Of a stretch of DNA of 64,000 nucleotides, positions 45,798 to 63,944 are shown piece after piece. The DNA is from an archaeon (GTDB lineage: Archaea > B1Sed10-29 > JAVZDC01). The stretch spans positions 110,531 to 174,530 of the forward strand of contig JAVZDC010000002.1 in assembly GCA_038874115.1 (NCBI GenBank), read 5' to 3'. The notes below the pieces were generated by a model that was given only the letters and a program-made list of their open reading frames with translations, was not told the origin of the DNA and did no database searches. A program made the position numbers and the translations under genes. Numbering within the stretch: the first letter of the stretch is position 1; each line of letters begins with the position of its first letter.

Positions 45798-46601
45798 TTA
45801 GCAACTTGATGGTGTAATCGATATCGTGGTTGTTATGTATTCAATTGTTTGGTCTGGATTGGAATAACGGAATATTATTTTAGTTAATCCTTCTATTCCT
45901 TGGGAAATTCCAACTATTTCAACTCTTGATGCTTCGGCCTCTGCTTTCATTTGTCCGCAACTACCATCATTTTTAGCTGCAATGTATGATTTCTCCAATC
46001 TCTTACAAAGAGGAGCACTAGAAACCCAAGTTCTGCTTTCCGGCCCAATAAAGATCGTTAATTTATCTTTCTCATTATTTTTATTTTTAAAAGTAACTTT
46101 AAAAATGTCTTTCCCTTTAAATTTACTTCCATCTATTTCTATTTTAACCTTTCCTTCCGAGTCACAACTTAGTGTTATAGGTTTAATTTCACCTAAAGTC
46201 TTTGAAAGTTGGTCATAAAAATTAGCCGGATATTCTGGAGAATATTCTGTCGCACTTTCAACGCTAGACCCCATACCTTGATAGATTCCGTTTCCCCCTA
46301 AGGTTAAATCATTTTCTAACTTTCTTATAATCATGTATTTTAAATTCTCCGAGCTGCCATACTTGGAAAGGTCGAGCGTAAAATTAGAAGCTATCGCATT
46401 TTCAATTTGAGCGTAAATGTGGCTTTCAACAGTTGCTTTTATCATCTTTGCAGAATTACTTTGAAAAGAGTTTTCTTGGAAATTAATTAGACTTTTTGAT
46501 ACTCTTACATTATTCTCCACGACTACTACTGCTGTAAAACTTGCTATCAAAACCAGCAAGGTTCCAATCAAGGCACTAAAAAGAGAAAAACCTCTTCTCA
46601 T
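45798..46601 (-). CDS. prepilin-like protein (class III signal peptide), 267 aa
   Basis: N-terminus MRRGFSLFSALIGTLLVLIASFTAVVVV (basic, RG, hydrophobic helix), as in archaeal type IV pilin precursors. Confidence 0.6.
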   Translation of the reverse strand: MRRGFSLFSALIGTLLVLIASFTAVVVVENNVRVSKSLINFQENSFQSNSAKMIKATVESHIYAQIENAIASNFTLDLSKYGSSENLKYMIIRKLENDLTLGGNGIYQGMGSSVESATEYSPEYPANFYDQLSKTLGEIKPITLSCDSEGKVKIEIDGSKFKGKDIFKVTFKNKNNEKDKLTIFIGPESRTWVSSAPLCKRLEKSYIAAKNDGSCGQMKAEAEASRVEIVGISQGIEGLTKIIFRYSNPDQTIEYITTTISITPSSC

Positions 46602-46752: not shown

Positions 46753-47175
46753 CTAACATCCCTGTGGTAAAGTAGGTGTACCGCCTATGCCTACGACACA
46801 TTTATTAGTTCCACAAACAGCATAGACATCCACAGGTACATTTTTCTGCGGGGAGAATGTATTCTCATCGCAGTTTGCAATATTATTATTGATATTACTC
46901 GCGCATTCGAATTCTATATCTTTTCCCGCAGCTTCAACAAACTTTGAGGATCTAGCTGAATACGAGGTTCCAGTTTTTAATTTTACTGGAGTTGAACTTT
47001 TTTGAATATTGCAAGGTGAATTTGCTGCAGACTGAAGCAATGCTGCTACGGTTGTATCGAACTCTTGGCCAGGTACTGTTATTCCTCCAAGAATACTTAA
47101 TAAAATCGCTAAAATCATTACCGCAACTACCGCAGCAATCATAAGTTGGAACGTATCGAATGCTTGTCCTTTCAC
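46753..47175 (-). CDS. archaeal type IV pilin-like protein (class III signal peptide)
   Basis: N-terminus MKGQAFDTFQLMIAAVVAVMILAILLSILGG: KGQ motif then hydrophobic helix, matching the archaeal prepilin signal; Cys-containing C-terminal domain. Confidence 0.7.
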   Translation of the reverse strand: MKGQAFDTFQLMIAAVVAVMILAILLSILGGITVPGQEFDTTVAALLQSAANSPCNIQKSSTPVKLKTGTSYSARSSKFVEAAGKDIEFECASNINNNIANCDENTFSPQKNVPVDVYAVCGTNKCVVGIGGTPTLPQGC

Positions 47176-47190
47176 GCATTCACCTCCAAT

Positions 47191-47403
47191 TCACCATTTA
47201 TAATACGGACATATCTTACATTCTTCAGGTACTTGTTCAACAGTCCAAGGTTTTCCTATTAATTCTTTAACTTGCGGTGGGCAATCAGGGAAAGAACCAT
47301 AACAATTTGGAAACTTTTTTGCTTTTTTTATTTCTTCATAAATTTTTTCTCCTTCTTTTTTTCTTTTTATGATCGGTGTCCTTCTTCTTTTACCTCCACC
47401 CAT
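47191..47403 (-). CDS. hypothetical small basic Cys4 protein (70 aa)
   Basis: Highly basic N-terminus (GGGKRRRTPIIKRKK), four Cys (C-x5-C…C-x2-C); sits between two pilin genes. Confidence 0.45.
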   Translation of the reverse strand: MGGGKRRRTPIIKRKKEGEKIYEEIKKAKKFPNCYGSFPDCPPQVKELIGKPWTVEQVPEECKICPYYKW

Positions 47404-47443
47404 AACTTCACTACGTGTTTTTTATATAAAAATCTTTCTTTTT

Positions 47444-47842
47444 TTAAGAACAACTATCTGAGCAAAGATATATTGTACATCCTTGTTGTGAGTCGCACTT
47501 TGTAGATATTGGAATTTTCATATTGTATTTTGCAGTACAAAGGAATCCTTCACAATCTACTTTATTTCCGCACCTGTTCCTAATTCCTATAGATGTATCT
47601 GGGAAAAAATGTTGTATGCTTTTAGATGATATTGTTTCTCCTTTTTTTAGTTCAAAATCCCGAGATATGCATTGGGATGCTACTCTTACAGAATAAGCTT
47701 CCCCAACAATCTCTTTTAATAATGCTCCTGTTTCAAAAGGTTTTGGAGTAGAACTTATATATGCAAAGATTATTGCTGCTAAAGCGATAGCAAAAATTCC
47801 AGCAAGCATCATTTCAAAAATCGTAAAAGCTTGTCCTTTCAT
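47444..47842 (-). CDS. archaeal type IV pilin-like protein (class III signal peptide)
   Basis: N-terminus MKGQAFTIFEMMLAGIFAIALAAIIFAYI; paralogue of 46753..47175; overlaps the platform gene stop by 4 nt. Confidence 0.7.
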   Translation of the reverse strand: MKGQAFTIFEMMLAGIFAIALAAIIFAYISSTPKPFETGALLKEIVGEAYSVRVASQCISRDFELKKGETISSKSIQHFFPDTSIGIRNRCGNKVDCEGFLCTAKYNMKIPISTKCDSQQGCTIYLCSDSCS

Positions 47843-49881
47843 GCGATCCCTGTAATTAATAAAGAACTAAAGTACGTTGCGGCAAGGAAAAGAATGACAG
47901 ATATTGGTAAAGTCTTTGCAATGTTTATCTTTAAAGCAAGGTCGTTTTCCCCTTCCTCTATTTTACTTGTAAAATAGGTTAAAAGCAAAGTAATTTCAAC
48001 AACATAGATTCCAAGTAAAATTATGAAGAATTCAACACTTGGTAACTGCGAGACTTCAAACTTTCCAATACTAAAGAATCCAGGAATGTTTTTCATTTTG
48101 ATTCCAGTTTGTTGAGCAGACAAACCAGAAAGAGATTGAATTATTAATTTCTGCATGCTTCCAGTGATTCCAAGTACTAAAGGAGCAATTAGAAAAGCAA
48201 TCGATTTCATCATGGCAGTTATTTCTTCCAACATGTTTTTTATTTTTGTTTGTAATTTTCTCAAATCTTTTATTTGTAAAGAAAGAGATATAAGAGCTTT
48301 TGCTGCTTGTTGAACTCCTAAACTAGCAGCATCTAAAACAATCCTAAAACTGTTTTTTATAAAGTCTGAGTATACTTCTCTTAAAGATCCGTATGCAGGG
48401 TCAAAAAAAGCACTCTGAACAGTCATTCCCAAGTTTCTTATGTTTTCACTAGTTTTTGCAAAAACTTTTGCAATTTTTGTGTGTTTTAAAAAGTTAGCTG
48501 AATATTCCATCGCTTCTTCCAAAGGTCTATTTTCCCCAAGTCTTGAAGCAACAACATAGATCCCATCTTCAAATTCTCCTTCCATTGTCATTATTTCTAA
48601 CTGCAGTTTTCTTCTTTCGATAGAAATTCCGTAAAGATAGATTGAAACAAAAGCACTAAAACTTAAGAATACCCCTGCAATCCAACCAAAATGAACGTAT
48701 CCAGTCAAATCAGCATGAGTTTGTGAGTATTGCATAGCAAGGAATGGTTCCAAAATAAAGAAACAACAAAAGAAAATAGTAAATGCAACAATGGATGCAA
48801 TAAAGACAGCAGGTACTTCAGACTTACCTATCCTCATGTAACCTTTTTTTGGAAGTTTGGGAAGATTTTCCGGAATTTTTGGTGGCACGTATACAGGAGG
48901 TCTCATACTTAAAATGTTTTTAGCAAAGATCATCGTTCCAAAAGGAATCGCAGCAACATAAAGCCCAGTTATAAGCAAAGGATTGCTTAAAAAAGGCAAG
49001 TTTCCAATCATCGCTCCTATCGGTAAAAGAATTATAAGCATTAAAGGCAGTAGGACTCCAACATAGTAAAGGTAGATCGTTGGTTGTCTCATCTTTGTTA
49101 TGTACCCGTTCATTTCTTCAGAAAGGCCAGCTAAAACATCTTCTAAAGCCTTATCTAAAATTGCATGTCTCTTTCCTTCGTCTATTTCTATTATCGAAGA
49201 TCTTATTAACATCAAGGCATGTTTAAACTGTTCACTATAGTTTCCCCATTTATACGCTAAAGCATCTAACGCTTCCTCCATAGATCTATATATTCCAAAT
49301 TTTACATCCCAACTTAATTTCTTTAAATCTTCTGCAATCTTTCCCCTTCCATGCATTCCTGCAAACTCAACTGCCTTTTCCAAGTTTGGCGTTAGTTTCA
49401 TCGAAATTATAAGATAATTTACTATCTCGGGTATACTTAGCAAAGCTTCTATCTTTTGAGCTTTTGCTGCGTTTATTATATATCGGTTATAATAGTTTGC
49501 AAGAATGAAAGGAATTAATATTAAAACTGGAGCACACATCGTAAAAATAAACATGTCTAGCTCTTGGGTAATAAAAACCATGTATCCAAGAAAACCCAGG
49601 ATTGGCAAAACAAGTATTAAAGAGATTTGTGTTACAAAGATAGGAACAGCATTTACTTCCGCAGGAGTTAAAGGCCAACCTAAAAACTCTAGAGCAGAAG
49701 CAAATTCTTTATTTTTAAACTCATTTTTTGCTTTTACGTATTTTGCAGCCATTTTTGCCAATCTTATGTAAGAATTTTCTTTGATTTGTACTTTTGGTTT
49801 TTCTATAAGCTCTTTTGAAAATGCTTCTGCAAAACCTCCAAGCGTATTTTCTTCTTCAAACCTTCTTCTTCGCTCTCTCAA
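47839..49881 (-). CDS. type IV pilus / secretion membrane platform protein (FlaJ/TadC-like, two T2SS-F-type domains)
   Basis: 680 aa polytopic membrane protein with two cytoplasmic helical domains each followed by TM helices; immediately downstream of and overlapping the secretion ATPase gene. Confidence 0.7.
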   Translation of the reverse strand: MRERRRRFEEENTLGGFAEAFSKELIEKPKVQIKENSYIRLAKMAAKYVKAKNEFKNKEFASALEFLGWPLTPAEVNAVPIFVTQISLILVLPILGFLGYMVFITQELDMFIFTMCAPVLILIPFILANYYNRYIINAAKAQKIEALLSIPEIVNYLIISMKLTPNLEKAVEFAGMHGRGKIAEDLKKLSWDVKFGIYRSMEEALDALAYKWGNYSEQFKHALMLIRSSIIEIDEGKRHAILDKALEDVLAGLSEEMNGYITKMRQPTIYLYYVGVLLPLMLIILLPIGAMIGNLPFLSNPLLITGLYVAAIPFGTMIFAKNILSMRPPVYVPPKIPENLPKLPKKGYMRIGKSEVPAVFIASIVAFTIFFCCFFILEPFLAMQYSQTHADLTGYVHFGWIAGVFLSFSAFVSIYLYGISIERRKLQLEIMTMEGEFEDGIYVVASRLGENRPLEEAMEYSANFLKHTKIAKVFAKTSENIRNLGMTVQSAFFDPAYGSLREVYSDFIKNSFRIVLDAASLGVQQAAKALISLSLQIKDLRKLQTKIKNMLEEITAMMKSIAFLIAPLVLGITGSMQKLIIQSLSGLSAQQTGIKMKNIPGFFSIGKFEVSQLPSVEFFIILLGIYVVEITLLLTYFTSKIEEGENDLALKINIAKTLPISVILFLAATYFSSLLITGIA

Positions 49882-52144
49882 GAGCTTCCCTCCTAGCGAT
49901 AAGCGGTTTTACCTGGTTTTCTAAAAACCAGTCTTTCCATTCTTGAATTGCCATTTGATAATCAACCATTCCCAAATCTTCTCTCTGTCTTTCCAGTATT
50001 AAAAGCCAAGCATCATTAGCTGGAACAGTGTATTTCGCTTCCAATAATTCTGGTATTTGGTATTTATTCTTTTGGTCTACTGCAAATTGTTTTATTTCTG
50101 CCCTTGCGTTTATGTCTTCCCAGATTTGTTCAAAAGTTAGTCCTCTTCTTGCACTAATTCTTTTAAAAATCTCAGACTTTCTACAATTTTCTTCTAAAAC
50201 CTTAAAAGAATCTTTATCTACATTGTATTCTATAAGTTGCAAGAAACCATTTTCTTTTTCCGGATCTGAATACCAATGTTTTTCCACACTCGTTATTTCC
50301 ACAACTCTCCTATGTCTTTTCAAAGACCCCTTAAACCTTATTGGAGCACAAACTACACAAACGTCTGTTGCTTTGAAAGAAGTATTTGGAACTCCTAAAT
50401 CGTTTACGATTCTGTCCCATACTGAATATGCGGATTCTCCGTGGATAGTTCCCATAACTACGTTACCTACAGCACCAACTCTCATAGCTTCGTACAAAAC
50501 TAAAGCTTCTTTAGATCTAACTTCTCCAACTATCAATACTGAATCTCCAAGCCTTAAAGCAGTCCTTAATGCTTCTTCTGGCGGTACTTCAGCACTTGTT
50601 CTAGATACTGCTATTGCTGATTGCGTTTTTAATCTTTGAATGTTAAATCCAAGCCCTTTCATGAATTCGACTGGAAGTTCTAAAGTGTCTTCTAGAGTTA
50701 GAATTCTTAAACTTGGCAATATTTCCAACATTAAAGCTTGAAGAAGAGATGTTTTCCCTGCCCCTCTTGAACCAACAACAAGAGTGGATGCTTGCGCATC
50801 TATTAAATAAGATAATAAACCAGCTACTTTGCTATCTATCATTTTTACATCTATAAATTGTTGTAATGTCCACGGAGTTTCTTTATGCAATCTTAGTGCA
50901 AACGCAGTACCATCAGGGGATAAAGGTGGTCCAATAACTGCAATTCTTGTTTGTAAATCTCTTAAATCAAAATCCAAGACCGGATGGGCTTCATCAAAAG
51001 GTCTTCCAGAAAGGGCTCTAAACCTAGATACCAAAGTTTTTGCTTCTTCTTCAGTAAAAACAACGTTTGTTTGGCAAGAACCATATTCTCCATGCACAAC
51101 GTAGACAGGTTTGGTTCCAAGAGGAGCATCGATATAGACATCAGTTAACTTTCTATCAGAAAGCAACAATTCCAATATCCCGTAACCAACAGTATATCTG
51201 CAAACAATTCCAGCAATTTCCGAAGCTTCTTTTCCAGTAATTTTTATTCCATGTTTATTGGCCAAATCTATAATCGTTGTTTCATAAACTCCAAGCAAAT
51301 AGTTCCTTAGTTCTTCCGGATTAGCAAAATGTAATCCTTCAGGAGAATAAGTTGAAACAATATCTTTAGTCTTCGAAAGTAAAAAGTATTTTTCTGGAGG
51401 CAAGTTGTATTCTGGAGGGGCAATATAATAAAGATATTGAACTTTTGCTGGATGTTTGTATATATTTACAGTCGCATCTTTTACATAATATTGGTCCACT
51501 AATTCTATTTCTTCTGGAGTTGCGAAAAAAACTCTGGATGCAACAAAAGCAGGTTTTATTTGAGCTTCAAATAAACTATGATAAATAGTTCTTCCTGGCG
51601 GAATTCTCCCAAGCTTTTTTATAATTTCTTTTGTTTTTTGAATTAGAGTAGTTTTTTCAAAAGCAGCTAACATGAAATATAGTGTATTTAAGTATATGTC
51701 GCTACATTCTTTTTCTATTCCTTGAAGGCCGGCATTCCTTTCATTCTCTCTTTTCAAAGCTTCAACCAAAGTTAAATATGCTCGGAGAGGGTCTGTTTTT
51801 AAAAGATCTTGAGCAATGGAGACGACTAATGAATACCGTCCAGGAATTTCTCCTTCGCATTGAGGATGGCCAAGTCTTGAAGAATTCCACACTCCTTCCC
51901 TATAAAATAAGTTCCCCAATTCTCCGATTTCTTTAAGCATTTTTGTTTGTTCTTCAGAATATATTATTTCATAAACTTCAGCTAGAACAACCATGTCTGC
52001 ATTTGTTCTAGCCAACTTTTCTATAACTTCCCTCATGCATTGTGGAAAATCAGCAACAGAAGGGCCCCACTCGCTTCCTCTATAATCAATGATTAAATAC
52101 CTCTTTGTTCCTTCTGTTTTTATTGTGAAATCATGCGCAGCCAT
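49856..52144 (-). CDS. type II/IV secretion-system ATPase (FlaI/VirB11/PilB superfamily) with long N-terminal extension
   Basis: 762 aa; Walker A VVGSRGAGKTSLLQAL, downstream conserved Asp/Glu and His boxes typical of secretion ATPases. Confidence 0.85.
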   Translation of the reverse strand: MAAHDFTIKTEGTKRYLIIDYRGSEWGPSVADFPQCMREVIEKLARTNADMVVLAEVYEIIYSEEQTKMLKEIGELGNLFYREGVWNSSRLGHPQCEGEIPGRYSLVVSIAQDLLKTDPLRAYLTLVEALKRENERNAGLQGIEKECSDIYLNTLYFMLAAFEKTTLIQKTKEIIKKLGRIPPGRTIYHSLFEAQIKPAFVASRVFFATPEEIELVDQYYVKDATVNIYKHPAKVQYLYYIAPPEYNLPPEKYFLLSKTKDIVSTYSPEGLHFANPEELRNYLLGVYETTIIDLANKHGIKITGKEASEIAGIVCRYTVGYGILELLLSDRKLTDVYIDAPLGTKPVYVVHGEYGSCQTNVVFTEEEAKTLVSRFRALSGRPFDEAHPVLDFDLRDLQTRIAVIGPPLSPDGTAFALRLHKETPWTLQQFIDVKMIDSKVAGLLSYLIDAQASTLVVGSRGAGKTSLLQALMLEILPSLRILTLEDTLELPVEFMKGLGFNIQRLKTQSAIAVSRTSAEVPPEEALRTALRLGDSVLIVGEVRSKEALVLYEAMRVGAVGNVVMGTIHGESAYSVWDRIVNDLGVPNTSFKATDVCVVCAPIRFKGSLKRHRRVVEITSVEKHWYSDPEKENGFLQLIEYNVDKDSFKVLEENCRKSEIFKRISARRGLTFEQIWEDINARAEIKQFAVDQKNKYQIPELLEAKYTVPANDAWLLILERQREDLGMVDYQMAIQEWKDWFLENQVKPLIARREALERAKKKV

Positions 52145-52657
52145 TTTAACATTCCTCGTTCCGAATTCGTGAAAGCGACTTTTTTTACTTTTAAAATCTT
52201 GCTATTTTTTTCTATTTTTATAACTCTACTCTCTTTTATAAATCTTTATCCTCTTAAAGTCTTTGTGGCTAAAGGCGTCTCTTTTTTATTAACTCTTTTT
52301 GGTGTACCGCATGTTTTAATCTTCTCAAGCCCAGAGCCAAGCATTTTTGTAGATAATGTCGAAGCCCAAATAAAGGACTTATGTGTTGGACATATGGAAA
52401 TTGCGTTGATTTGTTCGATAATCTTAGCTTGTGATGATCGTTCTGTTAAATCTCGAGTTCTTGGTGCCTTTTGTTCTATTCCTTTTGTTTTTTTCTTAAA
52501 TCCTTTAAGAATCTCGGTCGTTTTGTTTTTTGGGCATTATTTCTCCTGGCCTTTTGCAGACTTTATTCATGATGTTCTTTTCAGGCTCACTCTTTTTATT
52601 GTAATTCTTATTTACTTTCTGATTTGGTATGTTTTATCCTGGAAGTTTAAGTTATAA
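52133..52657 (+). CDS. possible small polytopic membrane protein with Cys-Ser / Asn-x-x-Arg motifs (exosortase/archaeosortase-like?), or non-coding
   Basis: 174-aa ORF in the 550-bp divergent intergenic region; TM helices, EIALICSIILAC and FLNPLRISV. May be spurious (AT-rich DNA gives hydrophobic ORFs) or may start internally. Confidence 0.3.
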   Translation: MRSHFNIPRSEFVKATFFTFKILLFFSIFITLLSFINLYPLKVFVAKGVSFLLTLFGVPHVLIFSSPEPSIFVDNVEAQIKDLCVGHMEIALICSIILACDDRSVKSRVLGAFCSIPFVFFLNPLRISVVLFFGHYFSWPFADFIHDVLFRLTLFIVILIYFLIWYVLSWKFKL

Positions 52658-52696
52658 CTAAGAAAAAATTTAAATAGTTTTAGGCATTAGAAAATT

Positions 52697-53833
52697 ATGT
52701 CAAAGAAAATAATTTCAAATGCTTTCTTACTTTTGGTTTTGGCGAGTGTAGGATTCGCTGGATTCCAGACAATTTCTCCTTCCGAAGGAGGGTTTGTTTT
52801 TACTGACTTTCAAGAAATGACGATGTCTGGGTTTGCAGATTTTCTTGCTGAGAAAGCTTTGGAAAAGAAAGGAACGTATTTTGTTCATATAACTTCTGCA
52901 GATTGTAAAATTAATTTAGATAACTTCCGCGACTTTGCTTCTTCTACAAACTATGTAACAGTTTCCAAATATTCTATTGAAGATACTTCTTCTGGCAAAT
53001 CGCAAGATACTTTTTATCCAGGGTATTATGTTTTTAGTGTGAAAGATAAGGGAAAGGAAACTGTAAGTATTTCTGGCAAGGCTTTGAAAAAGGAGAGTAC
53101 TAGTTTACCGGATAAAGAATGCATTAGCAAATACCAAGGAGTTAGAGCAGATCAATGGGCGGGTTTCGGAAAAGAAAATGCCGGAATTCTCTATAGTGCC
53201 AGTAATCTTGTATACCCTGAGGATCAAGGAGAGGAATGCGGAAATATAGTTGCATGGTGGGGGGCGGCACAGAGACTCACCGGTATGGGGGCTGATCGGG
53301 CGGGGTGCGATACCAATGAGGGTGTGCCTATGCCAAGAGTCTATTACCGAGTGGTGCAAGATATTTTAGGGTTAGAACCTAAAGATTGTAGTGGCACCTT
53401 GGAAGATTGTTGTATATCTCATGCTACAGAGTGGATGAAGAACAATATTCGATATGATTCTTTCAGCGTTTTAAAGTACAACGATACCGCGATTTATTAT
53501 GACGGTGTTAATATTCCTTTAACTTATTATAATTATTATGCCACGGTTAAACCAAAAGTAGATAAAGGAACAGAAATGAATCCCAAGTGTTTTGGTTCGG
53601 GAATTCAGCGCTTTTGGTGGATCGTGGATTATTTATACTGTGTAAAGGGTTCAAAATGCATGGAGTCTGATGGTTCAAGGTTCGTTGCGCCTTGCAGTGC
53701 TAAATCCGGTTATGGAACATGCTGTCATGGAGATGTCCTTTATAGTGATGATGGAAAACCGCACTGTTGCCCAAGCGGTTACTCCAAAGTCATAGATTTT
53801 GGAAATGGAAATGTTCGGTGCTTTAAGAGTTAA
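52697..53833 (+). CDS. secreted cysteine-rich protein (378 aa)
   Basis: N-terminal signal peptide (KKIISNAFLLLVLASVGFAG), many Cys including CC pairs (DCCISHA, TCCHGD, PHCCPSG); locally elevated GC. Confidence 0.7.
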   Translation: MSKKIISNAFLLLVLASVGFAGFQTISPSEGGFVFTDFQEMTMSGFADFLAEKALEKKGTYFVHITSADCKINLDNFRDFASSTNYVTVSKYSIEDTSSGKSQDTFYPGYYVFSVKDKGKETVSISGKALKKESTSLPDKECISKYQGVRADQWAGFGKENAGILYSASNLVYPEDQGEECGNIVAWWGAAQRLTGMGADRAGCDTNEGVPMPRVYYRVVQDILGLEPKDCSGTLEDCCISHATEWMKNNIRYDSFSVLKYNDTAIYYDGVNIPLTYYNYYATVKPKVDKGTEMNPKCFGSGIQRFWWIVDYLYCVKGSKCMESDGSRFVAPCSAKSGYGTCCHGDVLYSDDGKPHCCPSGYSKVIDFGNGNVRCFKS

Positions 53834-53864
53834 TCTTTAAATTCTTATTTTCCCTTGTTTATTC

Positions 53865-54407
53865 ATGAAAGGACAAGAATCTGCACCAATTGAGCTTCTT
53901 TTAGGGACGATAATCCTAAGCTTTGTGTTAGTTTTGGTTTATTTTACTTACCAAAATCTTTCTGGAAAGCAATATTCTGCAGCATTACAAGTTGCATTTT
54001 CAAAACTTGGAAGTGAGTTGGAATTTGTGTACCAAGGAGCTGTGGGTACAAAAAGAGTACTTTCTTTAGATTTTTCTCCTTTAGAGGGCACAGGAAAAAA
54101 GACAGCGATAAAAATTCTTCATGGGCACAAGGAGACATGTTTAAAACAAACTGGAAAAGAAAACTGTTGGCAATTGATCGCCGTACAAGGTGAAGAAGGA
54201 CAAGCAGGAGTTTTATATTCTTTAGCATTAAACATTCCAACATCAATCGCGATAAAATTCAAGAATGCAACAGGAGACGAAGCGGTATGTGAAAATGAAT
54301 ACAGTTCTTGGAGCTCTCCTATACCTTGCCAATGGAAACCTACAAGATATACTTTGACTATAGAAAAGACAAGCAATAATGAAATAATAATTAGTCAAGT
54401 GAGTTAA
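53865..54407 (+). CDS. prepilin-like protein (class III signal peptide)
   Basis: N-terminus MKGQESAPIELLLGTIILSFVLVLVYF (KGQ + hydrophobic helix). Confidence 0.6.
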   Translation: MKGQESAPIELLLGTIILSFVLVLVYFTYQNLSGKQYSAALQVAFSKLGSELEFVYQGAVGTKRVLSLDFSPLEGTGKKTAIKILHGHKETCLKQTGKENCWQLIAVQGEEGQAGVLYSLALNIPTSIAIKFKNATGDEAVCENEYSSWSSPIPCQWKPTRYTLTIEKTSNNEIIISQVS

Positions 54408-54408
54408 T

Positions 54409-54921
54409 TTGCGAGGAATATCTGTCTGGCTTTTTTCAAAAATAATAATGCTTCTTTTCGTATTTTTAGCATTCGCATTAATGACGTCTTTTTATGTCTC
54501 AGTGAAAGAAAAAGAATTTACAGATTCTGCATATTTCTTTACTGAACAATTAAAAGAAAGAATTCAGATGATTGCTTTTGCAGACGTTCTTGAATCTCAG
54601 ACTCAGTTTTATTTACCAAAAACTCTTCCAGAAGAAAGGCAAGAAAAAGGAAGATTTTATACTTTAACTATAGGGAAAAAAGAAGATGTTTTCTATATTC
54701 TTCTTTCTTGGGGGACAGAAAAATCTCCGAAAAAATATTTAGTTGCTCAAGGTTTTAATATAAGTAAGGAATATAAGGTTAATAAGCAAGATTCTTGTAA
54801 GATAACTGTCCAATCATCGGAATATATTTGGTTAAATATCTCTAAGAAAGAAAAAGAGTTGACAATCCAAAAATGTAAGTCATCGACATCCTGTGACCAA
54901 CCAAAATGTGAGGGTTCATGA
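54409..54921 (+). CDS. prepilin-like protein (class III signal peptide)
   Basis: N-terminus MRGISVWLFSKIIMLLFVFLAFALM (RG + hydrophobic helix). Confidence 0.55.
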   Translation: MRGISVWLFSKIIMLLFVFLAFALMTSFYVSVKEKEFTDSAYFFTEQLKERIQMIAFADVLESQTQFYLPKTLPEERQEKGRFYTLTIGKKEDVFYILLSWGTEKSPKKYLVAQGFNISKEYKVNKQDSCKITVQSSEYIWLNISKKEKELTIQKCKSSTSCDQPKCEGS

Positions 54922-55304
54922 AAGGGTACATTGGTCCTTTAGGGGATGATATTCCAGGAATAATTTCCATAGTTTTAGCATTCTCAATTTTCTTTGCTGG
55001 TTTTTCTATAGCAATGACTACTTTGAATGAAAAAACTGTTGTTATTCAAAAGTTTAAGGGAACCATGGAAATTGCGAAAGCAATAAATTCAAAAACCGTT
55101 CTTCCAGAGAATTTGGAAGATTTACGGAAAGATGCACAGAGAATTGCAACTACAAGAGCTTTACAGTTTAATCTTTCTTATAAAGATACAAGAAGTCAAA
55201 TGGTTTGTGGAGAAAAAGCATTTTATCTTACATACTTTGTTGCAAGATATAATCAAGGTCAAACAGAAATAGTTCCAGATATATTGACAATTTGCGTTTG
55301 GTGA
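54918..55304 (+). CDS. prepilin-like protein (class III signal peptide)
   Basis: N-terminus MKGYIGPLGDDIPGIISIVLAFSIFFAGF; start overlaps the preceding gene stop by 4 nt. Confidence 0.5.
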   Translation: MKGYIGPLGDDIPGIISIVLAFSIFFAGFSIAMTTLNEKTVVIQKFKGTMEIAKAINSKTVLPENLEDLRKDAQRIATTRALQFNLSYKDTRSQMVCGEKAFYLTYFVARYNQGQTEIVPDILTICVW

Positions 55305-55308
55305 ATGA

Positions 55309-55824
55309 ATGAATAAAGCCCAAGCAGCTCTTTTCGACGCTCTTTTCTTTATGTTTTTAGCAGCTGGAGCAGCTTACTTATTACTTTTCGTGGCTGCAAA
55401 CTATGCTGCGGATACACAAAATCAAGTAGCTTTCACGTATAATTATGATTATCTCTCAAACGTTTTTGTAGCGTTACATTATTTAAAAGATGATTCTGGA
55501 AACTTTTTTTGGTTAAAATTTGAAGAAAAATTGGGGAAAGAAGAACAAAGTTGCAATTATTTGAAAGATTATTTTGGTTTGACAAAGGTTACTTATGATC
55601 CAAACGATCATGAAAAAGCAAAACCTATTTTAGAACTTTTGAATGCTTCAAGTCCAAGTGATTGTTTTGTTTTGGAAATAAGGGAAAATGGGTGCAAGAT
55701 ATACGTTTCCGGAAGTGAGGCTACTTGCGAAGAAAGCAAAGAAAGAAATCAAGTAATTGCTTATTCCACCGGAATTTCTAAAGGTCTTAAATCTTATACT
55801 TTAACTTTGAAGGTTTTGCGCTGA
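55309..55824 (+). CDS. prepilin-like protein (class III signal peptide)
   Basis: N-terminus MNKAQAALFDALFFMFLAAGAAYLLLF (K-A-Q + hydrophobic helix). Confidence 0.5.
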   Translation: MNKAQAALFDALFFMFLAAGAAYLLLFVAANYAADTQNQVAFTYNYDYLSNVFVALHYLKDDSGNFFWLKFEEKLGKEEQSCNYLKDYFGLTKVTYDPNDHEKAKPILELLNASSPSDCFVLEIRENGCKIYVSGSEATCEESKERNQVIAYSTGISKGLKSYTLTLKVLR

Positions 55825-58800
55825 GAATCTTTTTCTTATTATAAGAATTCCTAAAATTACTGCAATCAGGAAAGGTAAGAATTCTATCCCTTCAGGAACG
55901 CTTGGTAACTGAGCCAAGATGCTTGGTTTTTCAGAAGGTTTTGTTGGCCCACCGCCAGCTACTCTACTCGTGCCTAAGAAGTTTTGCATAGGTATTATTC
56001 CTCCCCCAGCCCAACCGCCTCCAAGAGTCTGGAAACTTGGGTTTAAGTTAAGTGGGAATTCATTACTAATCGATATTTTTCCTGATTCAGCATTGAATAT
56101 TATGGACCCTTGCGGGCTTCCAAACAACCATACTGGGAATGAACTAACAGGCTTTCCGTCTTTTGAAATTTCTACAACTGGTTCTCCGTTTGGTCCAGTT
56201 TTAACTTTTAATTCCATCCCATCGTCAAATTTTATTACCCCATCTTTTATCTCTTTTATATCATGACATTCTTCTTTGCCTTCTTTGTTCCAGCATAATT
56301 GATTATCTTTTATGTAAATAGATTCGTTTTTGTCTAATGAAACAATCCTGTCAAAGCACATTTCTTCCAACAATGCTTGCAGTTGAGCTCTTTCATCCGG
56401 GTCTCTTGTTTCAGCTACAAGTTTAAATCCTTTTAACCCATCAGTTTCGCAAGGATCTGTAATTCTCCAATTCTCAAAGTTTGTGCTTTCATCAACGTAT
56501 AAATCATAGAAGAATAAGTGCATTACATTCCTTCCATATGTTTTAGATTCTTCTTTTGCCCTGCCGATTACTGTTTTCTCGTTTTCAAACTCAATATAGC
56601 TTCTAGAGTCCATAGTAAATAAACAAGAACCTGCTTGTATGCTTCCATTCCTATAAACAGTTATTTCTTGGCCAACAGACAATACTTTTCCAAGCCCGTG
56701 AACTTCTTCTCCACATTTTGATTCTTTCAAAAATCTAACATAAAATCCATCTTTTTCTTTCCAAATGTACCCTTCTTTTGTGTTTATGAATTGGAATCCT
56801 CCAAAGGCGTTTTTAATTATTTTTTCTTTGTATGCTTCTTTTGCGTTTACTCCTCCAAACAATTTCAAAATAGCATTTTTAACGCAATCATTCTCGATAG
56901 TTACAGTATCATCAGAACGTATTTTGAATAATGTATCATCTTTCATGAATACGTTTATTACTTGGAGTGGTAATCCTAAATATCCTCGATCGTTGTGCCA
57001 TCTTAATCCTAATAACTCTGGCCCTTCAAGGATCAAATTACCCTTTTCATCATAAAGGTAATATCCTTTTCCTTCTATGCATTTGAATTTCCCTTCTTCT
57101 ACTTGTTGGCAAAATTGTATTGGGCAGTCTTCGCCAGTATTGAAGTCAAATATTGTGTCTGGATCAAAGTGGAATTGATAGATTTCAGGCATGAAATAAT
57201 TCATGTTGTTTGGAGGGTTTATTTTTCCTTGAATGTTTAAAATTTGAGTATAAGTAGATGCGCTCACAATCTCAGATATTTTATTTGCCGCTTCTGGTGC
57301 AAAGCCTTGGAGTAAAGTTCCTAAACTTTGTACTGCAGGTTTAAGTTGTGAAGATAATTGAGCTGTTAAGTCATCAGCCTCTTCCTTCAATTCTCCTCTG
57401 TCAACTTGTTGGAATGCTAAAAGAGAAAACTTAGTTTCTTTACATCTTTTTAAGCGTTCTAATCCTTCTGCTTTTGCTTCTTCATATTGTCTTTGGGCTT
57501 CATAAGACCATAGACTAGTAGCTATTGATGCAATTGTTGTAGCAGGTTTCACTATAGCTCCGACTCCACTGTACGTAGCTACCGTATCTACGCTTGTCGC
57601 AGCAAGGTCAGCTATAATGGCCGCATAGTACCATCCGAACTTCTCATCTACTTTTCCTTCAACATCCACAAGAGTTTTTTCACAATCTTCTCCAGATGCG
57701 TATGCTGCCAATGGATCAGAGATTGGCGCCCATCTAACTTCTTTCATATGTTCTGATATTTCTTGCATAACTCTACCTTGTTGTTGTAGACCAGCGGCAA
57801 TAGCGATAGCGACAAGTGCTCTTGATGCAGGAGTGATTCCTCCAAAGGTAGGTAGTGGGACTATAAAAGAGGTTAAAAGAATCGATTTTCCAACATCCCC
57901 CCAGTTAGGCATTTGTGCAGCCACTTTCGAAGCAGGTAATTGAGCCCAATCTTCTGTTGATGGGGCCCAACCACTCATGTTTACATTCGTGATATCCATC
58001 CCAATACTTGAGACAAACGTTTTTCCAAAATAGAATAAGCTCGATGGATGTTCATACAAATAATAAGCTGTTTCTAACGGATTTCCTACGGTAGCGAACA
58101 TTATTTTTCCCGGGCTTGCTTCTGTTATTCCGAAAACATTAAGTGGTCTTGCAGAAGTTAAAGCAGTTGTAAGTCCTTGTTCTTGGTCTGCTATAAAAAC
58201 ATAAGATTGCTTTCCACTTTGTACCTTTTGTGCAATTAATGGTATATCTTTCCATTCAATACCAAATACAAGGTTAGTGGATTTTATCCAAGCACTTGGA
58301 GGTCTGAAATCTTCTCCTTCAATTCCATCTTCGGCAGCATATTTTAGTTTTGTTACAACGATGTCAAGATATGAAGATTGATTTATGAGTTTTCGAGTAG
58401 GAGTTAACTCAAATTCTAAAGCATGAACTAATATTTCTCCTTTTGGTTCTTGGGTAAGAGCCCAAGCTCCAACAAGCAACATTGCAGCTCTGTGCATCAA
58501 AGCTTGAGCATGCGCCAGAGTTAAAGCGTTTAGCACATACCTACCTCCATTTATCAGGAACGTCACCCCAGCTCTGTAAAGACCTTCCTCAGCTTTAATG
58601 ATTATACCCTTTTTCGTACCTTTTTCAACTTCTAGATACCTGCTCAAATCGATAGTTTTCTTTCCTATAGAAATTTTAGATCTCCCTTCAGCAATGAGTT
58701 TTATCTCTTCATCCGATGGTTGCTCAATTATTTTTCTAACAAATTTGAGTCTAGGGTCCTTCACCAACCCACCCTCAGAGTTTTTCAGTTCCGATATATA

Positions 58801-60126
58801 ACCTTGTATTTTGTCCAAGCAACCTTCTTTAACACAAAATTCTTTCTCATATTCTCCTACGAGTCCATTTTCTATAGCATTTTTCATATCCTTTGGCATC
58901 TTTCCTTCTTTTATAAGCTCTTGTAGTTCTTTTTCAGATAGCCCTAATTCTTTTTCTGTTAGTGTTTTTATTCCTGAATACTCTACAAAAGCCTTTTCCA
59001 TAAGCTTATCATTATTTTTAAGCTCTTCTTCCAAACTCGTCATTTCTTTTTCCAACCTGGAAAGCCTCCATTTACCAATCCGCCCCAACTTCCCCGATCC
59101 TTCAAGTTCTTTCAATCCTTTTACTTTTTCACTAATCTCCATGTACTTTTTAGCCTGTGCTGCAATACCAGACTTTGTAACAGTCGTCCCCTTTTTCATC
59201 CCTCCTTTCAAAGAGGCAAACCCAACAGCAGTGCTTACCCATCCAGCAATTTCAGCATATTCTTCCAACCCTGCTTTTCCAGCAAGGAAATGAGTATAAG
59301 CTAATAGAGTTTTTGGTATCAAAAATCCAAAATCCATTTGAGAAAGAAGTCCAGTTGTTCTATTGCTTTCAATTATGTTCATCCTTCCTGTTTGTTGTAT
59401 GTCCATTATTTTTGTCGATAAATCCATTATTGCCATTGCAGCTTTATCTTTTTCCCCTCCTTTTATAGCATTCATGCTTTCTTCATATATTTCTTTATAC
59501 TGTTCTTTCCACCCGCTTTCACTCCATGCTCTCTCCAAATCTTGTTCTGAATTCTTTTCTATTGCGTTTAGCAATGCTTGGATTTTTCCATAATTCTGAG
59601 CATTTGTTTCTTTCTGAGCTTCACTTAAGTATCCATTTTCACAAGCAGGGTCATGAATTTCAGAACAGATTCTTGTATTCCAATCTATTTTTCCAGCAAA
59701 GCTTATTGCTCCCCTATAAAAAGCATCAGTAAGGTAACATTGAGACCCAGCAGGAACTATCTTATGTTGAAGAGTATCAAAAAGGAGTATTGGCTTTCCT
59801 CCAGGACCAAGAATAAATAAGTCCTTTACATTATTTACAGAAGAATCAGGAGAAACGCCTGCTTTATTATATGTATCTGCTCTTTTTTGAGCTTCCGTAT
59901 TTCCATAAAAGTCAATAGTTATCGAATTATTCAAAAGCCTTTCATATTCGCTCGCATTCAATGTGACAATCTCAACTTCCTTTTCACAATTTTGTACATT
60001 TTTTATTTTATACATCGAAGTAATATTAATCTCTTTTGAAATTGCAAAACTTATCGGTTCTAACGTTGAGAAAAATAATATTCCAAAAAACAAAATCGCT
60101 ATTAATTTATCTCGCATATCTTCCAA
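55801..60126 (-). CDS. giant (1441 aa) secreted/surface protein with C-terminal PEF/PGF-CTERM-like sorting signal
   Basis: N-terminal signal/TM (LIAILFFGILFFSTLEPISFA); no recognised catalytic domain; C-terminus PSVPEGIEFLPF-LIAVILGILII-RKRF (motif, TM helix, basic cluster); GC above local background. Confidence 0.8.
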   Translation of the reverse strand: MEDMRDKLIAILFFGILFFSTLEPISFAISKEINITSMYKIKNVQNCEKEVEIVTLNASEYERLLNNSITIDFYGNTEAQKRADTYNKAGVSPDSSVNNVKDLFILGPGGKPILLFDTLQHKIVPAGSQCYLTDAFYRGAISFAGKIDWNTRICSEIHDPACENGYLSEAQKETNAQNYGKIQALLNAIEKNSEQDLERAWSESGWKEQYKEIYEESMNAIKGGEKDKAAMAIMDLSTKIMDIQQTGRMNIIESNRTTGLLSQMDFGFLIPKTLLAYTHFLAGKAGLEEYAEIAGWVSTAVGFASLKGGMKKGTTVTKSGIAAQAKKYMEISEKVKGLKELEGSGKLGRIGKWRLSRLEKEMTSLEEELKNNDKLMEKAFVEYSGIKTLTEKELGLSEKELQELIKEGKMPKDMKNAIENGLVGEYEKEFCVKEGCLDKIQGYISELKNSEGGLVKDPRLKFVRKIIEQPSDEEIKLIAEGRSKISIGKKTIDLSRYLEVEKGTKKGIIIKAEEGLYRAGVTFLINGGRYVLNALTLAHAQALMHRAAMLLVGAWALTQEPKGEILVHALEFELTPTRKLINQSSYLDIVVTKLKYAAEDGIEGEDFRPPSAWIKSTNLVFGIEWKDIPLIAQKVQSGKQSYVFIADQEQGLTTALTSARPLNVFGITEASPGKIMFATVGNPLETAYYLYEHPSSLFYFGKTFVSSIGMDITNVNMSGWAPSTEDWAQLPASKVAAQMPNWGDVGKSILLTSFIVPLPTFGGITPASRALVAIAIAAGLQQQGRVMQEISEHMKEVRWAPISDPLAAYASGEDCEKTLVDVEGKVDEKFGWYYAAIIADLAATSVDTVATYSGVGAIVKPATTIASIATSLWSYEAQRQYEEAKAEGLERLKRCKETKFSLLAFQQVDRGELKEEADDLTAQLSSQLKPAVQSLGTLLQGFAPEAANKISEIVSASTYTQILNIQGKINPPNNMNYFMPEIYQFHFDPDTIFDFNTGEDCPIQFCQQVEEGKFKCIEGKGYYLYDEKGNLILEGPELLGLRWHNDRGYLGLPLQVINVFMKDDTLFKIRSDDTVTIENDCVKNAILKLFGGVNAKEAYKEKIIKNAFGGFQFINTKEGYIWKEKDGFYVRFLKESKCGEEVHGLGKVLSVGQEITVYRNGSIQAGSCLFTMDSRSYIEFENEKTVIGRAKEESKTYGRNVMHLFFYDLYVDESTNFENWRITDPCETDGLKGFKLVAETRDPDERAQLQALLEEMCFDRIVSLDKNESIYIKDNQLCWNKEGKEECHDIKEIKDGVIKFDDGMELKVKTGPNGEPVVEISKDGKPVSSFPVWLFGSPQGSIIFNAESGKISISNEFPLNLNPSFQTLGGGWAGGGIIPMQNFLGTSRVAGGGPTKPSEKPSILAQLPSVPEGIEFLPFLIAVILGILIIRKRFSAQNLQS

Positions 60127-63275: not shown

Positions 63276-63944
63276 TTAAACTTTTATTGTTTGGGCTAAA
63301 GAAAATATTATTTGAGTTATTGGGACCAAAAATATCAAATAAATTAAAAACTTATTCTTTCTTCCATCGATAAAGCTTAAAAAGGCCGAGGTTATAACTG
63401 CATAAAATCCTAAATAAATTCTATTTCCAAGTACTATATTTTCTATAACCCCTTCAGAAATTGAGAAATCGTCTAGTCCGGAAAAATCAAGTTGAGATAC
63501 GATTGAGAGCATTAAACCAAGTATGGTTGGAACTAAAATGCATCCAGCAAGCAAAGTTAGCTTTTCAATAGTTAAAATGCTTTTTCTTTGATTTTGGATT
63601 TTTATATACTCTGAAATTTCATCAGCACAACTTTTCAATGCTTTTGAAATGTCTGCCCCAGTTGAATATCCAGATATTAAGATGTCAAGAGCTCTTTTAA
63701 AATATTCAGACTTAGTTTCTTCCCTGATTTGCATTAGAGCTTTATCTACCGATTCTCCTTTCGAAACTCTGATAAAAGCTTTGTTAAATTCTTTTCCAAT
63801 CTCCCCTTCCTTCCCCAAATTCTTTAAAACATCTTCAAAAGGCAAAAAAGTTGAAAGTGCAGCTGCAGCATACAATGTACCAACAAGTTCTTTTTCCAAT
63901 TTTTCTATCTTCCCAATTTCTTTAAGGGTTTCCATAAATTGCAA
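63276..63944 (-). CDS. T2SS-F-domain (FlaJ/TadB-like) membrane protein, single domain
   Basis: 222 aa; cytoplasmic helical N-domain followed by TM helices, the GspF/TadB-like architecture. Weak call. Confidence 0.45.
   Translation of the reverse strand: MQFMETLKEIGKIEKLEKELVGTLYAAAALSTFLPFEDVLKNLGKEGEIGKEFNKAFIRVSKGESVDKALMQIREETKSEYFKRALDILISGYSTGADISKALKSCADEISEYIKIQNQRKSILTIEKLTLLAGCILVPTILGLMLSIVSQLDFSGLDDFSISEGVIENIVLGNRIYLGFYAVITSAFLSFIDGRKNKFLIYLIFLVPITQIIFSLAQTIKV

What the first reader, a model, noticed from the sequence alone, without database searches (positions are those of the whole stretch)
52697..55824. Divergent second operon: Cys-rich secreted protein followed by four consecutive prepilin-like proteins
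Transcribed divergently from the ATPase operon. A 378-aa signal-peptide protein with about twenty Cys, including three CC pairs, is followed by four small proteins with class-III-like N-termini (MKGQESAPIELLLG…, MRGISVWLF…, MKGYIGPLGDDIPGIISIVLAF…, MNKAQAALFDALFFMFL…) and divergent C-terminal domains. Together with the three on the other strand and the giant protein this gives at least eight pilin-like genes in ~15 kb, suggesting a multi-subunit or variable fibre, or minor pilins/pseudopilins.
Basis: seen in the sequence. Interest (0 to 1): 0.6.

Follow-up and report, generated by a model that had tools for sequence, protein, structure and literature searches.

The report
Conserved four-pilin cassette plus an orphan
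Four small genes in this DPANN (Micrarchaeota-like) archaeon encode four different, conserved pilin-like proteins that always travel together as a fixed set beside a type IV pilus motor, so they are most likely its minor pilins; the Cys-rich protein in front of them is an unrelated orphan, and the whole is an ordinary but so far unannotated archaeal pilus locus.

Summary
The five ORFs exist exactly as described. The 378-aa protein has 16 Cys, not about 20, and three CC pairs. The window comes from a Micrarchaeota-like DPANN archaeon.

The four small proteins are four distinct orthologous families. They occur in the same order (p180-p170-p128-p171) in all 14 other distinct related loci long enough to show all four, always next to a type IV filament ATPase, a TadC platform and two paralogous pilins. 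Every one of 68 sequences keeps [KR][GA] just before a conserved mature N-terminus. The N-terminal 30 residues are 66-77% identical, the rest 36-44%. AlphaFold models p180 (pLDDT 91) as a 50-residue N-terminal helix plus a beta domain, which is pilin architecture, but it has no significant match to solved structures. No Pfam, NCBIfam or PDB match exists for any of the four families.

The cassette has its own conserved TATA-like box and tightly coupled genes. In most relatives it lies downstream of the ATPase operon, so the "divergent operon" here results from one inversion. The Cys-rich protein sits at the inversion junction, is absent from all related loci, and has no relative among 1.84 billion representatives.

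Verdict: minor pilins of an archaeal type IV filament, a new member of a known kind. A "variable fibre" is not supported.

The parts
53865..54407 (+). p180: first cassette protein, pilin-like. Mature N-terminus QE(S/E)APxELLxG follows MKG.
   Evidence: 20 of 20 orthologues keep [KR][GA]Q E. AlphaFold with a 36-sequence alignment gives pLDDT 91.4, a helix at residues 8-57 and then 8 strands. 38 database homologues are all 'hypothetical' with no Pfam domain.
54409..54921 (+). p170: second cassette protein, pilin-like. Mature N-terminus (I/L/F)SxW(L/M/I)FSK follows M(K/R)G.
   Evidence: 18 of 18 orthologues keep [KR]G. Trp +4, Ser +7 and Lys +8 are invariant. No Pfam or PDB hit.
54918..55304 (+). 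p128: third cassette protein, pilin-like. Mature N-terminus (F/Y)xGPxGDDxP precedes the hydrophobic helix.
   Evidence: 16 of 16 orthologues keep [KR][GA]. G, P, G, D, D and P are invariant. Leader length varies from 2 to 13 residues in gene-called orthologues. Single-sequence AlphaFold was uninformative, pLDDT 50.6.
55309..55824 (+). p171: fourth cassette protein, pilin-like. Mature N-terminus Q(A/S)(A/S)xxDAxxFM, then a conserved YNxEY...HYAKD..G.WFW block.
   Evidence: 14 of 14 orthologues keep [KR][GA]Q. Its N-terminus weakly resembles the m132/m140 pilins (hhalign probability about 30%). No Pfam or PDB hit.
53836..53842 (+). TATA-like box (TTTAAAT) 23-29 nt upstream of the p180 start codon.
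   Evidence: A TTATAAAC / TTTAAAT / TTTTATA element sits at the same distance in all 20 loci examined.
52697..53833 (+). cys378: orphan secreted Cys-rich protein (16 Cys, 3 CC pairs, N-terminal Sec-type signal peptide). It is not part of the conserved module.
   Evidence: It is absent from 23 related loci. Exhaustive phmmer against 1.84 billion representatives finds only itself. No Pfam, NCBIfam or PDB hit. Its GC3 is 0.325 against 0.18-0.29 in neighbouring genes. It has its own TTTAAATA box at 52669-52676.
52133..52657 (+). Archaeosortase/exosortase-family protein (gene-called start 52169), divergent from the ATPase gene.
   Evidence: PF09721 at 1e-9, and TIGR04178 at 42 bits against a cutoff of 23. 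It holds the same divergent position in 10 related loci. Cys, Arg and His are invariant.
49856..52144 (-). Type IV filament assembly ATPase (FlaI/TadA-like).
   Evidence: PF00437 T2SSE at 5e-20. Best NCBIfam hits are FlaI and TadA, all below the equivalog cutoffs. 66-69% identical to Micrarchaeota MAG proteins.
47839..49881 (-). TadC/ArlJ-like membrane platform protein (680 aa).
   Evidence: Weak PF00482 T2SSF match, two stretches. Orthologue follows the ATPase in every locus that shows this region.
46753..47842 (-). m132 (47444-47842) and m140 (46753-47175): paralogous pilins, MKG|QAF..., candidate major pilins. A 70-aa insert gene lies between them at 47191-47403.
   Evidence: hhalign probability 99.8% between the two families. 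The m140 N-terminal 30 residues are 82% identical across loci.
45798..46601 (-). m267: larger pilin-like protein, M(R)RG|FSLF..PL(V/I)GT.
   Evidence: 10 of 10 orthologues keep [KR]G. In relatives it follows the archaeosortase gene.
40975..45684 (-). 1569-aa surface protein with an N-terminal membrane helix and prealbumin/Ig-like domains. Three small membrane proteins follow at 39965-40973.
   Evidence: CarboxypepD_reg and SpaA domains. The block is conserved after m267 in L001 and L002.
55801..60126 (-). 1441-aa surface protein, convergent on p171, with a C-terminal sorting signal. It is the probable archaeosortase substrate.
   Evidence: The gene lies next to the cassette in every locus long enough to show it: convergent on p171 in most, on the cassette's strand upstream of p180 in L013. 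The C-terminus LP-x-x-P-(E/D/S)-(G/N) + about 20 hydrophobic residues + an R/K cluster is conserved in 12 sequences.

Best explanation
The four small genes encode four different type IV pilin-like proteins. Each has a very short basic leader ending in Gly or Ala (a class III signal peptide), a conserved hydrophobic N-terminal helix, and a small extracellular domain that probably carries disulfides.

They form an obligate, co-inherited set of minor subunits of the Micrarchaeota type IV filament. That filament is built by the neighbouring FlaI/TadA-like ATPase and TadC platform, probably from the paralogous m140/m132 pilins.

The set is transcribed from its own TATA-like promoter, and its tightly spaced or overlapping reading frames point to coupled translation. 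That arrangement would give roughly equal amounts of the four proteins.

The most likely mechanism, which is inferred and not shown, has three steps. A prepilin peptidase encoded elsewhere removes the leader. The four proteins then associate through their N-terminal helices into a low-abundance heteromeric complex at the platform. That complex primes assembly and ends up at the tip or base of the filament. This parallels the essential minor pilins EpdA-D of Methanococcus maripaludis and the four core minor pilins of bacterial type IV pili and type II secretion systems.

The Cys-rich 378-aa protein is a separate, lineage-specific orphan secreted protein. It lies at the junction of an inversion that moved the cassette next to the archaeosortase gene.
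For: Shown:
- The cassette p180-p170-p128-p171 keeps the same order in 14 other distinct loci plus the window. It is never split, even though it occurs in three different arrangements relative to the ATPase.
- It is linked to a T2SSE ATPase and a T2SSF platform.
- [KR][GA] is kept in 20/20, 18/18, 16/16 and 14/14 sequences. Conservation starts at position -2, while the leader varies from 2 to 13 residues.
- The N-terminal 30 residues are 66-77% identical, against 36-44% for the rest.
- Cys counts are mostly even.
- A TATA-like box is conserved 23-33 nt upstream of p180 in 20 of 20 loci, and a 178-195 nt spacer follows m140.
- Gaps within the cassette are mostly -7 to +10 nt.
- The four globular domains are not homologous to one another.

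From the literature:
- Methanococcus maripaludis needs the minor pilins EpdA, B, C and MMP1283 (PMC3875500).
- Archaeal loci of this kind typically carry five or more minor pilins plus large adhesin-like or S-layer-like proteins (PMC4858521).
- The micrarchaeon Mia14 has an ATPase-TadC-five-pilin locus (PMC5498576, Supplementary Table 2).
Against: - No prepilin peptidase gene lies in the window, so processing is inferred only.
- Most leaders are only 2-3 residues long (MKG), at the short extreme for known archaeal substrates.
- p128 has about 10 partly polar residues (FxGPxGDDxP) before its hydrophobic helix, which is atypical.
- Only p180 could be modelled with an alignment. The p128 single-sequence model is unreliable, and p170 and p171 were not modelled.
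- No member of any of the four families matches Pfam pilin models such as PF04021.
- A tip or priming role, the stoichiometry and the existence of a complex are all untested.
Confidence: 0.62

Rival explanations
1. The four are unprocessed bitopic membrane proteins. They would form an assembly or anchoring sub-complex around the platform, comparable in role to ArlF/ArlG of the archaellum or PilN/PilO of bacterial pili, and would not be filament subunits.
For: - The N-region is very short (MK/MR), which also fits a plain signal anchor.
- No peptidase gene is nearby.
- The tight operon and fixed set suit a stoichiometric machine part.
- p128 and p170 have atypical mature N-termini.
Against: - Gly or Ala at -1 is invariant in 68 of 68 sequences across four unrelated families, and in three further pilin families of the same locus. 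A plain anchor would not require this.
- Conservation starts exactly at -2, while the leader length varies.
- Two of the families share +1 Gln with the locus's own pilins and show weak N-terminal profile similarity to them (hhalign probability 29-40%).
- The p180 helix runs unbroken from the membrane segment into the globular domain, as in pilins.
- There are no Pfam or NCBIfam hits to ArlF/G or PilN/O models.
Confidence: 0.15
2. The four form a short pseudopilus, as in type II secretion. It would push or present the giant surface proteins of the locus (1441 aa and 1569 aa) through the S-layer and would not be part of a long adhesive pilus.
For: - The cassette lies next to the 1441-aa protein gene in every locus long enough to show it.
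- The two giant proteins and an archaeosortase are conserved parts of the locus.
- Four distinct pilin-like proteins match the GspH/I/J/K count.
Against: - Two conserved paralogous pilins (m132/m140) with the most conserved N-termini are available as filament-forming major subunits.
- The 1441-aa protein has its own Sec-type N-terminus and a C-terminal sorting signal, which points to Sec export plus archaeosortase processing and not to piston export.
- No homology to Gsp pseudopilins was found.
Confidence: 0.13
3. The four are alternative major pilins that give a variable or multi-subunit fibre.
For: There are several pilin-like genes in a row with unrelated C-terminal domains.
Against: - Each is a single-copy orthologue kept in fixed order across relatives with only 25-40% identity.
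- No locus shows a copy-number change or a swap.
- All four are tightly packed in one unit, with gaps of mostly -7 to +10 nt, and are not separately regulated.
Confidence: 0.05

Closest known systems
Epd pili of Methanococcus maripaludis: major pilin MMP1685 plus the essential minor pilins EpdA, EpdB, EpdC and MMP1283 (PMC3875500; archaeal TFF 'clade/system 1', PMC4858521 and bioRxiv 10.64898/2026.04.22.720090)
   Same: - Both are archaeal type IV filaments with an ATPase, a TadC-type platform and several distinct minor pilins of about 130-180 aa encoded beside the machinery.
- The leader ends in Gly, and +1 is Gln in p180, p171 and the m132/m140 pilins.
- The locus also holds large adhesin-like proteins and extra small membrane proteins.
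   Different: - No sequence match to PF04021/DUF361 or to any curated pilin model.
- There is no conserved +5 Glu.
- The leader is usually only 2-3 residues, against 5-13.
- No EppA gene lies in the locus.
- There is a single fused 680-aa platform protein instead of two.
- The candidate major pilins are 132-140 aa with a globular domain, not about 70-aa Flp-like pilins.
- An archaeosortase gene is part of this locus.
Type IV pili locus MIA14_0252-0260 of the micrarchaeon 'Ca. Mancarchaeum acidiphilum' Mia14 (PMC5498576, Supplementary Table 2)
   Same: - The organism belongs to the same phylum-level group.
[quoted passage not shown] This matches the canonical layout seen here in relatives: ATPase-TadC-m132-m140-p180-p170-p128-p171.
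   Different: - That paper gives annotation only. It does not recognise a fixed four-gene cassette, its own promoter or the archaeosortase link.
Bacterial core minor pilins (FimU-PilV-PilW-PilX of type IVa pili; GspH-I-J-K of type II secretion)
   Different: - No conserved Glu5 is present.
- The resemblance is one of organisation only, and a complex has not been shown.

Membership tests
Type IV pilin-like proteins (class III signal peptide substrates, type IV filament subunits) | A short, positively charged leader ending in Gly/Ala, followed directly by a hydrophobic segment of about 20 residues | tested here: met
   [KR][GA] is present in 68 of 68 sequences of the four families. A hydrophobic 19-mer (mean Kyte-Doolittle above 1.6) starts within 10 residues of it. 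In p128 the hydrophobic segment starts only at about +11.
Type IV pilin-like proteins (class III signal peptide substrates, type IV filament subunits) | The leader is removed by a dedicated prepilin (class III signal) peptidase | not testable with these tools
   No peptidase A24/FlaK/EppA-like gene was found among the window proteins scanned. The rest of the genome is not available. In Mia14 the single peptidase is encoded far from the pili loci (PMC5498576).
Type IV pilin-like proteins (class III signal peptide substrates, type IV filament subunits) | A long N-terminal alpha-helix whose C-terminal half packs on a globular beta-rich domain | tested here: inconclusive
   Met for p180: pLDDT 91.4, helix 8-57, then 8 strands. 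The p128 single-sequence model is unreliable, pLDDT 50.6.
Type IV pilin-like proteins (class III signal peptide substrates, type IV filament subunits) | Significant structural or sequence similarity to a solved pilin | tested here: not met
   [not shown]
Type IV pilin-like proteins (class III signal peptide substrates, type IV filament subunits) | Genomic linkage to a type IV filament ATPase and platform protein | tested here: met
   Linkage is seen in the window and in every related locus long enough to show it.
Type IV pilin-like proteins (class III signal peptide substrates, type IV filament subunits) | Physical incorporation into, or requirement for, a filament | not testable with these tools
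   This needs experiments on an uncultivated organism.
EppA-type pilins (Pfam PF04021 Class_IIIsignal / DUF361) | A match to the family model, +1 Gln and +5 Glu | tested here: not met
   None of 77 family members scanned matches the model at E of 0.01 or better. +1 Gln occurs only in p180 and p171. No +5 Glu is present; the acidic residues sit at +2/+7 in p180 and +6 in p171.
Bacterial core minor-pilin set (GspHIJK / FimU-PilVWX) | Homology to those families and formation of a heteromeric tip or priming complex | tested here: not met
   No homology in sequence or structure. The complex itself cannot be tested. Only the organisation is shared: four distinct contiguous pilin-like genes beside a large surface-protein gene.
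Archaeosortase/exosortase system (for the gene at 52133-52657, considered as a possible processor of the five proteins) | Enzyme: a family model match and the Cys/Arg/His residues. Substrate: a C-terminal motif + TM helix + basic cluster | tested here: met
   Enzyme: TIGR04178 at 42.2 bits against a cutoff of 23, with invariant C, R and H. A substrate-type C-terminus is present in the 1441-aa neighbour. It is absent from cys378 and from all four pilin-like proteins, so these five are not its substrates.
Archaellum stator-like proteins ArlF/ArlG | A match to archaellin/FlaF/FlaG family models | tested here: not met
   No Pfam or NCBIfam hit.

The most novel reading that the evidence does not exclude
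The four-protein cassette is an archaeal counterpart, evolved independently, of the bacterial four-minor-pilin tip and priming complex. The conserved charged residues in the four mature N-termini (Lys +8 in p170; Glu +2/+7 in p180; Asp +6 in p171; Asp-Asp +7/+8 in p128) would pair up inside a heterotetrameric helix bundle. That complex would dock the archaeosortase-processed 1441-aa surface protein, always encoded next to it, at the pilus tip. The result would be the host-attachment device of these DPANN symbionts.
Probability: 0.2. Interest if true: 0.6.

Novelty: new member of a known kind. Interest (0 to 1): 0.35.

Why it matters
DPANN archaea such as Micrarchaeota live attached to host cells, and type IV filaments are the prime suspects for that contact. 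Their pilus loci, however, are annotated almost wholly as hypothetical proteins.

This work defines four unannotated protein families as a fixed minor-pilin cassette with its own promoter. It separates the conserved machine from a lineage-specific orphan. It also links the locus to an archaeosortase and its giant substrate. Together these give a concrete parts list for annotation and for future structural or co-culture work.

It does not change the general picture of archaeal type IV filaments, where several minor pilins and large accessory surface proteins are already expected.

Tried and rejected
Only p180 could be modelled with an alignment. The second job, p128 alone, gave an unreliable model.
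- The afdb50 fold library was not available.
- An exact look-up of cys378 found no record. The exhaustive search later found only the identical sequence.
- The sister-MAG contig L027 starts inside p180, so it cannot show whether cys378 is present there.
- cys378 as an archaeosortase substrate was rejected, because it has no C-terminal TM helix or basic tail.
- cys378 as a relative of the two secreted proteins that follow the archaeosortase gene in L001 was rejected, because no similarity appears even at E = 50.
- The four proteins as paralogues of one another was rejected (hhalign probabilities 0.4-1.7%).
- The gene in the roughly 920-nt gap between p171 and the giant gene in some relatives was considered as a cys378 counterpart and rejected. 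By my own reading of its sequence it resembles deoxyhypusine synthase; no family search was run on it.
- The paper on minimal signal-peptide length for FlaK and PibD is not held in the library.
Full report
**1. The observation.**
An independent gene caller on an essentially identical public contig (2 mismatches in 20 kb) calls the same five genes.

The 378-aa protein has an N-terminal hydrophobic signal. It has 16 Cys, not about 20, and three CC pairs. Each of the four small proteins has a single N-terminal hydrophobic segment and 2-4 Cys.

It matches PF09721 at 1e-9 and TIGR04178 at 42 bits against a cutoff of 23.

**2. Organism and locus.**
The window carries archaeal translation, RNA polymerase and family-B DNA polymerase genes at about 34% GC. 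The closest named relatives of its pilus ATPase are Candidatus Micrarchaeota MAGs, at 66-69% identity.

The minus strand next to the finding encodes:
- a T2SSE-type ATPase of the FlaI/TadA kind, below every equivalog cutoff;
- a 680-aa TadC-like platform protein;
- two paralogous pilins, m132 and m140, both starting MKG|QAF (hhalign probability 99.8%);
- a larger pilin-like protein, m267;
- a 1569-aa protein with prealbumin/Ig-like domains;
- three small membrane proteins.

Convergent on the last cassette gene is a 1441-aa protein with a C-terminal membrane anchor.

**3. Comparative genomics.**
A genome scan with the ATPase and a metagenome scan with a p180 alignment gave 24 related loci. Local phmmer mapping of all locus ORFs shows the four small genes as four orthologous groups in the same order, p180-p170-p128-p171. 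This holds in all 14 other distinct loci long enough to show all four (13 mapped plus the sister MAG contig L027), and in every partial locus up to the contig end.

The canonical layout, seen in 12 loci, is:

<- small TM x3 <- 1569-aa <- m267 <- archaeosortase | ATPase -> TadC -> m132 -> m140 -> p180 -> p170 -> p128 -> p171 ... <- 1441-aa.

The window differs from this by one inversion of the segment [archaeosortase | ATPase...m140]. That inversion places the cassette after the archaeosortase gene. L013 shows a third arrangement in which the cassette alone is inverted. In all three arrangements the cassette stays intact.

The "divergent second operon" is therefore a lineage-specific rearrangement and not a design feature. 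This is an inference from synteny.

**4. The Cys-rich protein.**
It lies at the inversion junction.
- It has no counterpart in any related locus, even at E = 50.
- It has no Pfam, NCBIfam or PDB hit.
- In an exhaustive HMMER search of 1.84 billion representatives, only the identical sequence was found.
- Its GC3 of 0.325 exceeds that of its neighbours, 0.18-0.29.
- It has its own TTTAAATA box 21-28 nt upstream.
- It lacks a C-terminal sorting signal, so it is not an archaeosortase substrate.

It is best described as a lineage-specific orphan secreted protein that probably carries disulfides. It may be an accessory surface factor, but nothing ties it functionally to the pilin set.

**5. The N-termini.**
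In alignments of all orthologues, conservation begins at a [KR][GA] pair. This pair is present in 20/20, 18/18, 16/16 and 14/14 sequences. Family-specific mature N-termini follow it:
- p180: QE(S/E)APxELLxG
- p170: (I/L/F)SxW(L/M/I)FSK
- p128: (F/Y)xGPxGDDxP
- p171: Q(A/S)(A/S)xxDAxxFM

The residues upstream vary in number from 2 to 13. The starts of ten p128 orthologues were confirmed as gene calls in the public collection.

The first 30 residues are 66-77% identical on average, against 36-44% for the rest. The three pilin families on the other strand show the same site. In the whole window, 7 of the 11 ORFs that fit a crude class-III rule are these clustered genes.

A plain signal anchor would not need an invariant small residue at -1 in seven unrelated families. 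A class III signal peptide is therefore the better reading. Cleavage itself remains inferred, and no peptidase gene lies in the window.

**6. Structure.**
Using 35 database homologues, all "hypothetical" with no Pfam domain, AlphaFold2 models p180 with mean pLDDT 91.4 and pTM 0.79. Residues 8-57 form one helix, followed by eight strands and a short helix. This is the pilin "lollipop" architecture.

Tool restrictions prevented alignment-based models of the other three. The single-sequence p128 model is unreliable, at pLDDT 50.6.

**7. Relations between the families.**
Profile-profile comparison finds no homology among the four globular domains (probabilities 0.4-1.7%). It finds only weak N-terminal similarity of p180 and p171 to m132/m140, at 29-40%.

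None of 77 family members scanned hits a Pfam pilin model. Profile searches of PDB sequences are empty.

The four are therefore four old, distinct, unannotated families and not diversified copies. This argues against a variable fibre.

**8. Expression signals.**
A TATA-like element (TTATAAAC / TTTAAAT / TTTTATA) lies 23-33 nt upstream of the p180 start codon in all 20 loci examined. In the window it is at 53836-53842. In canonical loci a spacer of 178-195 nt separates m140 from p180.

Within the cassette the gaps are mostly -7 to +10 nt. This suggests a separate, possibly leaderless transcript with coupled translation of the four proteins. That reading is an inference.

**9. Mechanism and rivals.**
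The best-supported reading is that the four are minor pilins of the filament assembled by the adjacent ATPase and platform, with m140/m132 as candidate major subunits. They would be made in roughly equal amounts, processed by a peptidase encoded elsewhere, and act together. Most plausibly they form a priming or tip complex, by analogy with two known systems:
- the essential minor pilins EpdA, EpdB, EpdC and MMP1283 of Methanococcus maripaludis (PMC3875500);
- the bacterial core minor pilins.

The rivals are:
- unprocessed bitopic machine parts of the ArlF/G or PilN/O kind;
- a pseudopilus that serves the giant surface proteins;
- alternative major pilins.

Their weights and refutation tests are given in the structured sections of this report.

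**10. Comparison with what is known.**
Makarova et al. 2016 (PMC4858521) describe archaeal T4P loci with five or more minor pilins, large adhesin-like and S-layer-like proteins, extra membrane proteins and conserved cysteines. Golyshina et al. 2017 (PMC5498576, Supplementary Table 2) list an ATPase-TadC-five-pilin locus in the micrarchaeon Mia14 and state that its key components are shared by many Micrarchaea. A 2026 preprint (10.64898/2026.04.22.720090) surveys archaeal TFF diversity and does not mention an archaeosortase link.

The finding is thus a new member of a known kind. The new elements are:
- the definition of the fixed four-family cassette and its promoter;
- the demonstration that the Cys-rich gene is an orphan;
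- the conserved pairing of the locus with an archaeosortase and a giant substrate.

**11. Scores.**
Interest is 0.35. The result is useful for annotating DPANN surface machinery and gives testable hypotheses on archaeal minor pilins. A specialist would not be surprised by it.

Noticed in passing
window 52133-52657 (+) and 55801-60126 (-); L001, L002, L003, L005, L007, L012, L013, L018, L019, L022: An archaeosortase-family gene sits divergently next to the pilus ATPase gene in the window and in 10 related loci, with Cys (LCxG), Arg (NPxR) and His (ADxxH) invariant. The 1441-aa neighbour ends in a conserved LP-x-x-P-(E/D/S)-(G/N) motif, a TM helix and an R/K cluster in 12 orthologues, so it is the probable substrate. 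I found no paper describing an archaeosortase-pilus locus link in DPANN.
   Followed up: partly
window 17879-21727 (-): A 1282-aa protein that, by eye, is Asn-rich and repetitive (possibly beta-helix-like; no repeat or fold test was run) ends in ...YPAPEDKLEF + hydrophobic helix + HNKKE. This resembles the sorting signal of the 1441-aa protein, so it may be a second archaeosortase substrate.
   Followed up: no
window 63276-63944 (-) and the gene running off the window end: A second T2SSF/ArlJ-like platform gene suggests that a second type IV filament locus starts at the window edge. PF00482 matches at 4.5e-12.
   Followed up: no
window 47191-47403 (-): A 70-aa basic protein with a C-terminal Cys cluster lies between the two paralogous pilin genes. 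Most related loci have only about 45-60 nt there. It is another lineage-specific insert in the locus.
   Followed up: no
window 40975-45684 (-); L001 1409-6274; L002 1529-6763: The 1569-aa protein has a conserved stretch of about 20-60 residues (…DFLDSK.IPVYS.IDP.EK.G) before its membrane helix. The Gly is kept but the -2 position varies (K/H/A).
   Followed up: partly
mature N-termini of p180, p170, p128, p171 and m140 (window 53865-55824 and 46753-47175): Each family keeps charged residues inside or just before the hydrophobic helix: Glu +2/+7 (p180), Lys +8 (p170), Asp-Asp +7/+8 (p128), Asp +6 (p171), Asp +4/Lys +7 (m140). Opposite charges could pair between subunits in a helix bundle. This is untested.
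   Followed up: no
window 26152-26445 (-): A 97-aa ORF (MRFSKA|SVYILANG... followed by a long hydrophobic stretch) fits the crude class-III rule and might be a stand-alone pilin-like gene.
   Followed up: no
L001 7194-9497 (-): In one relative the archaeosortase gene is followed by two paralogous secreted proteins of 387 and 348 aa that are unrelated to cys378. The position downstream of the archaeosortase gene may be a variable slot for lineage-specific secreted proteins.
   Followed up: partly
L002 12684-15733: In this relative, small unrelated genes are inserted between the pilin genes of the operon. By my own reading of their sequences (no family search was run) they resemble a toxin-antitoxin pair, a winged-helix protein and a kinase-like P-loop protein. 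The locus therefore tolerates insertions everywhere except inside the four-gene cassette.
   Followed up: no
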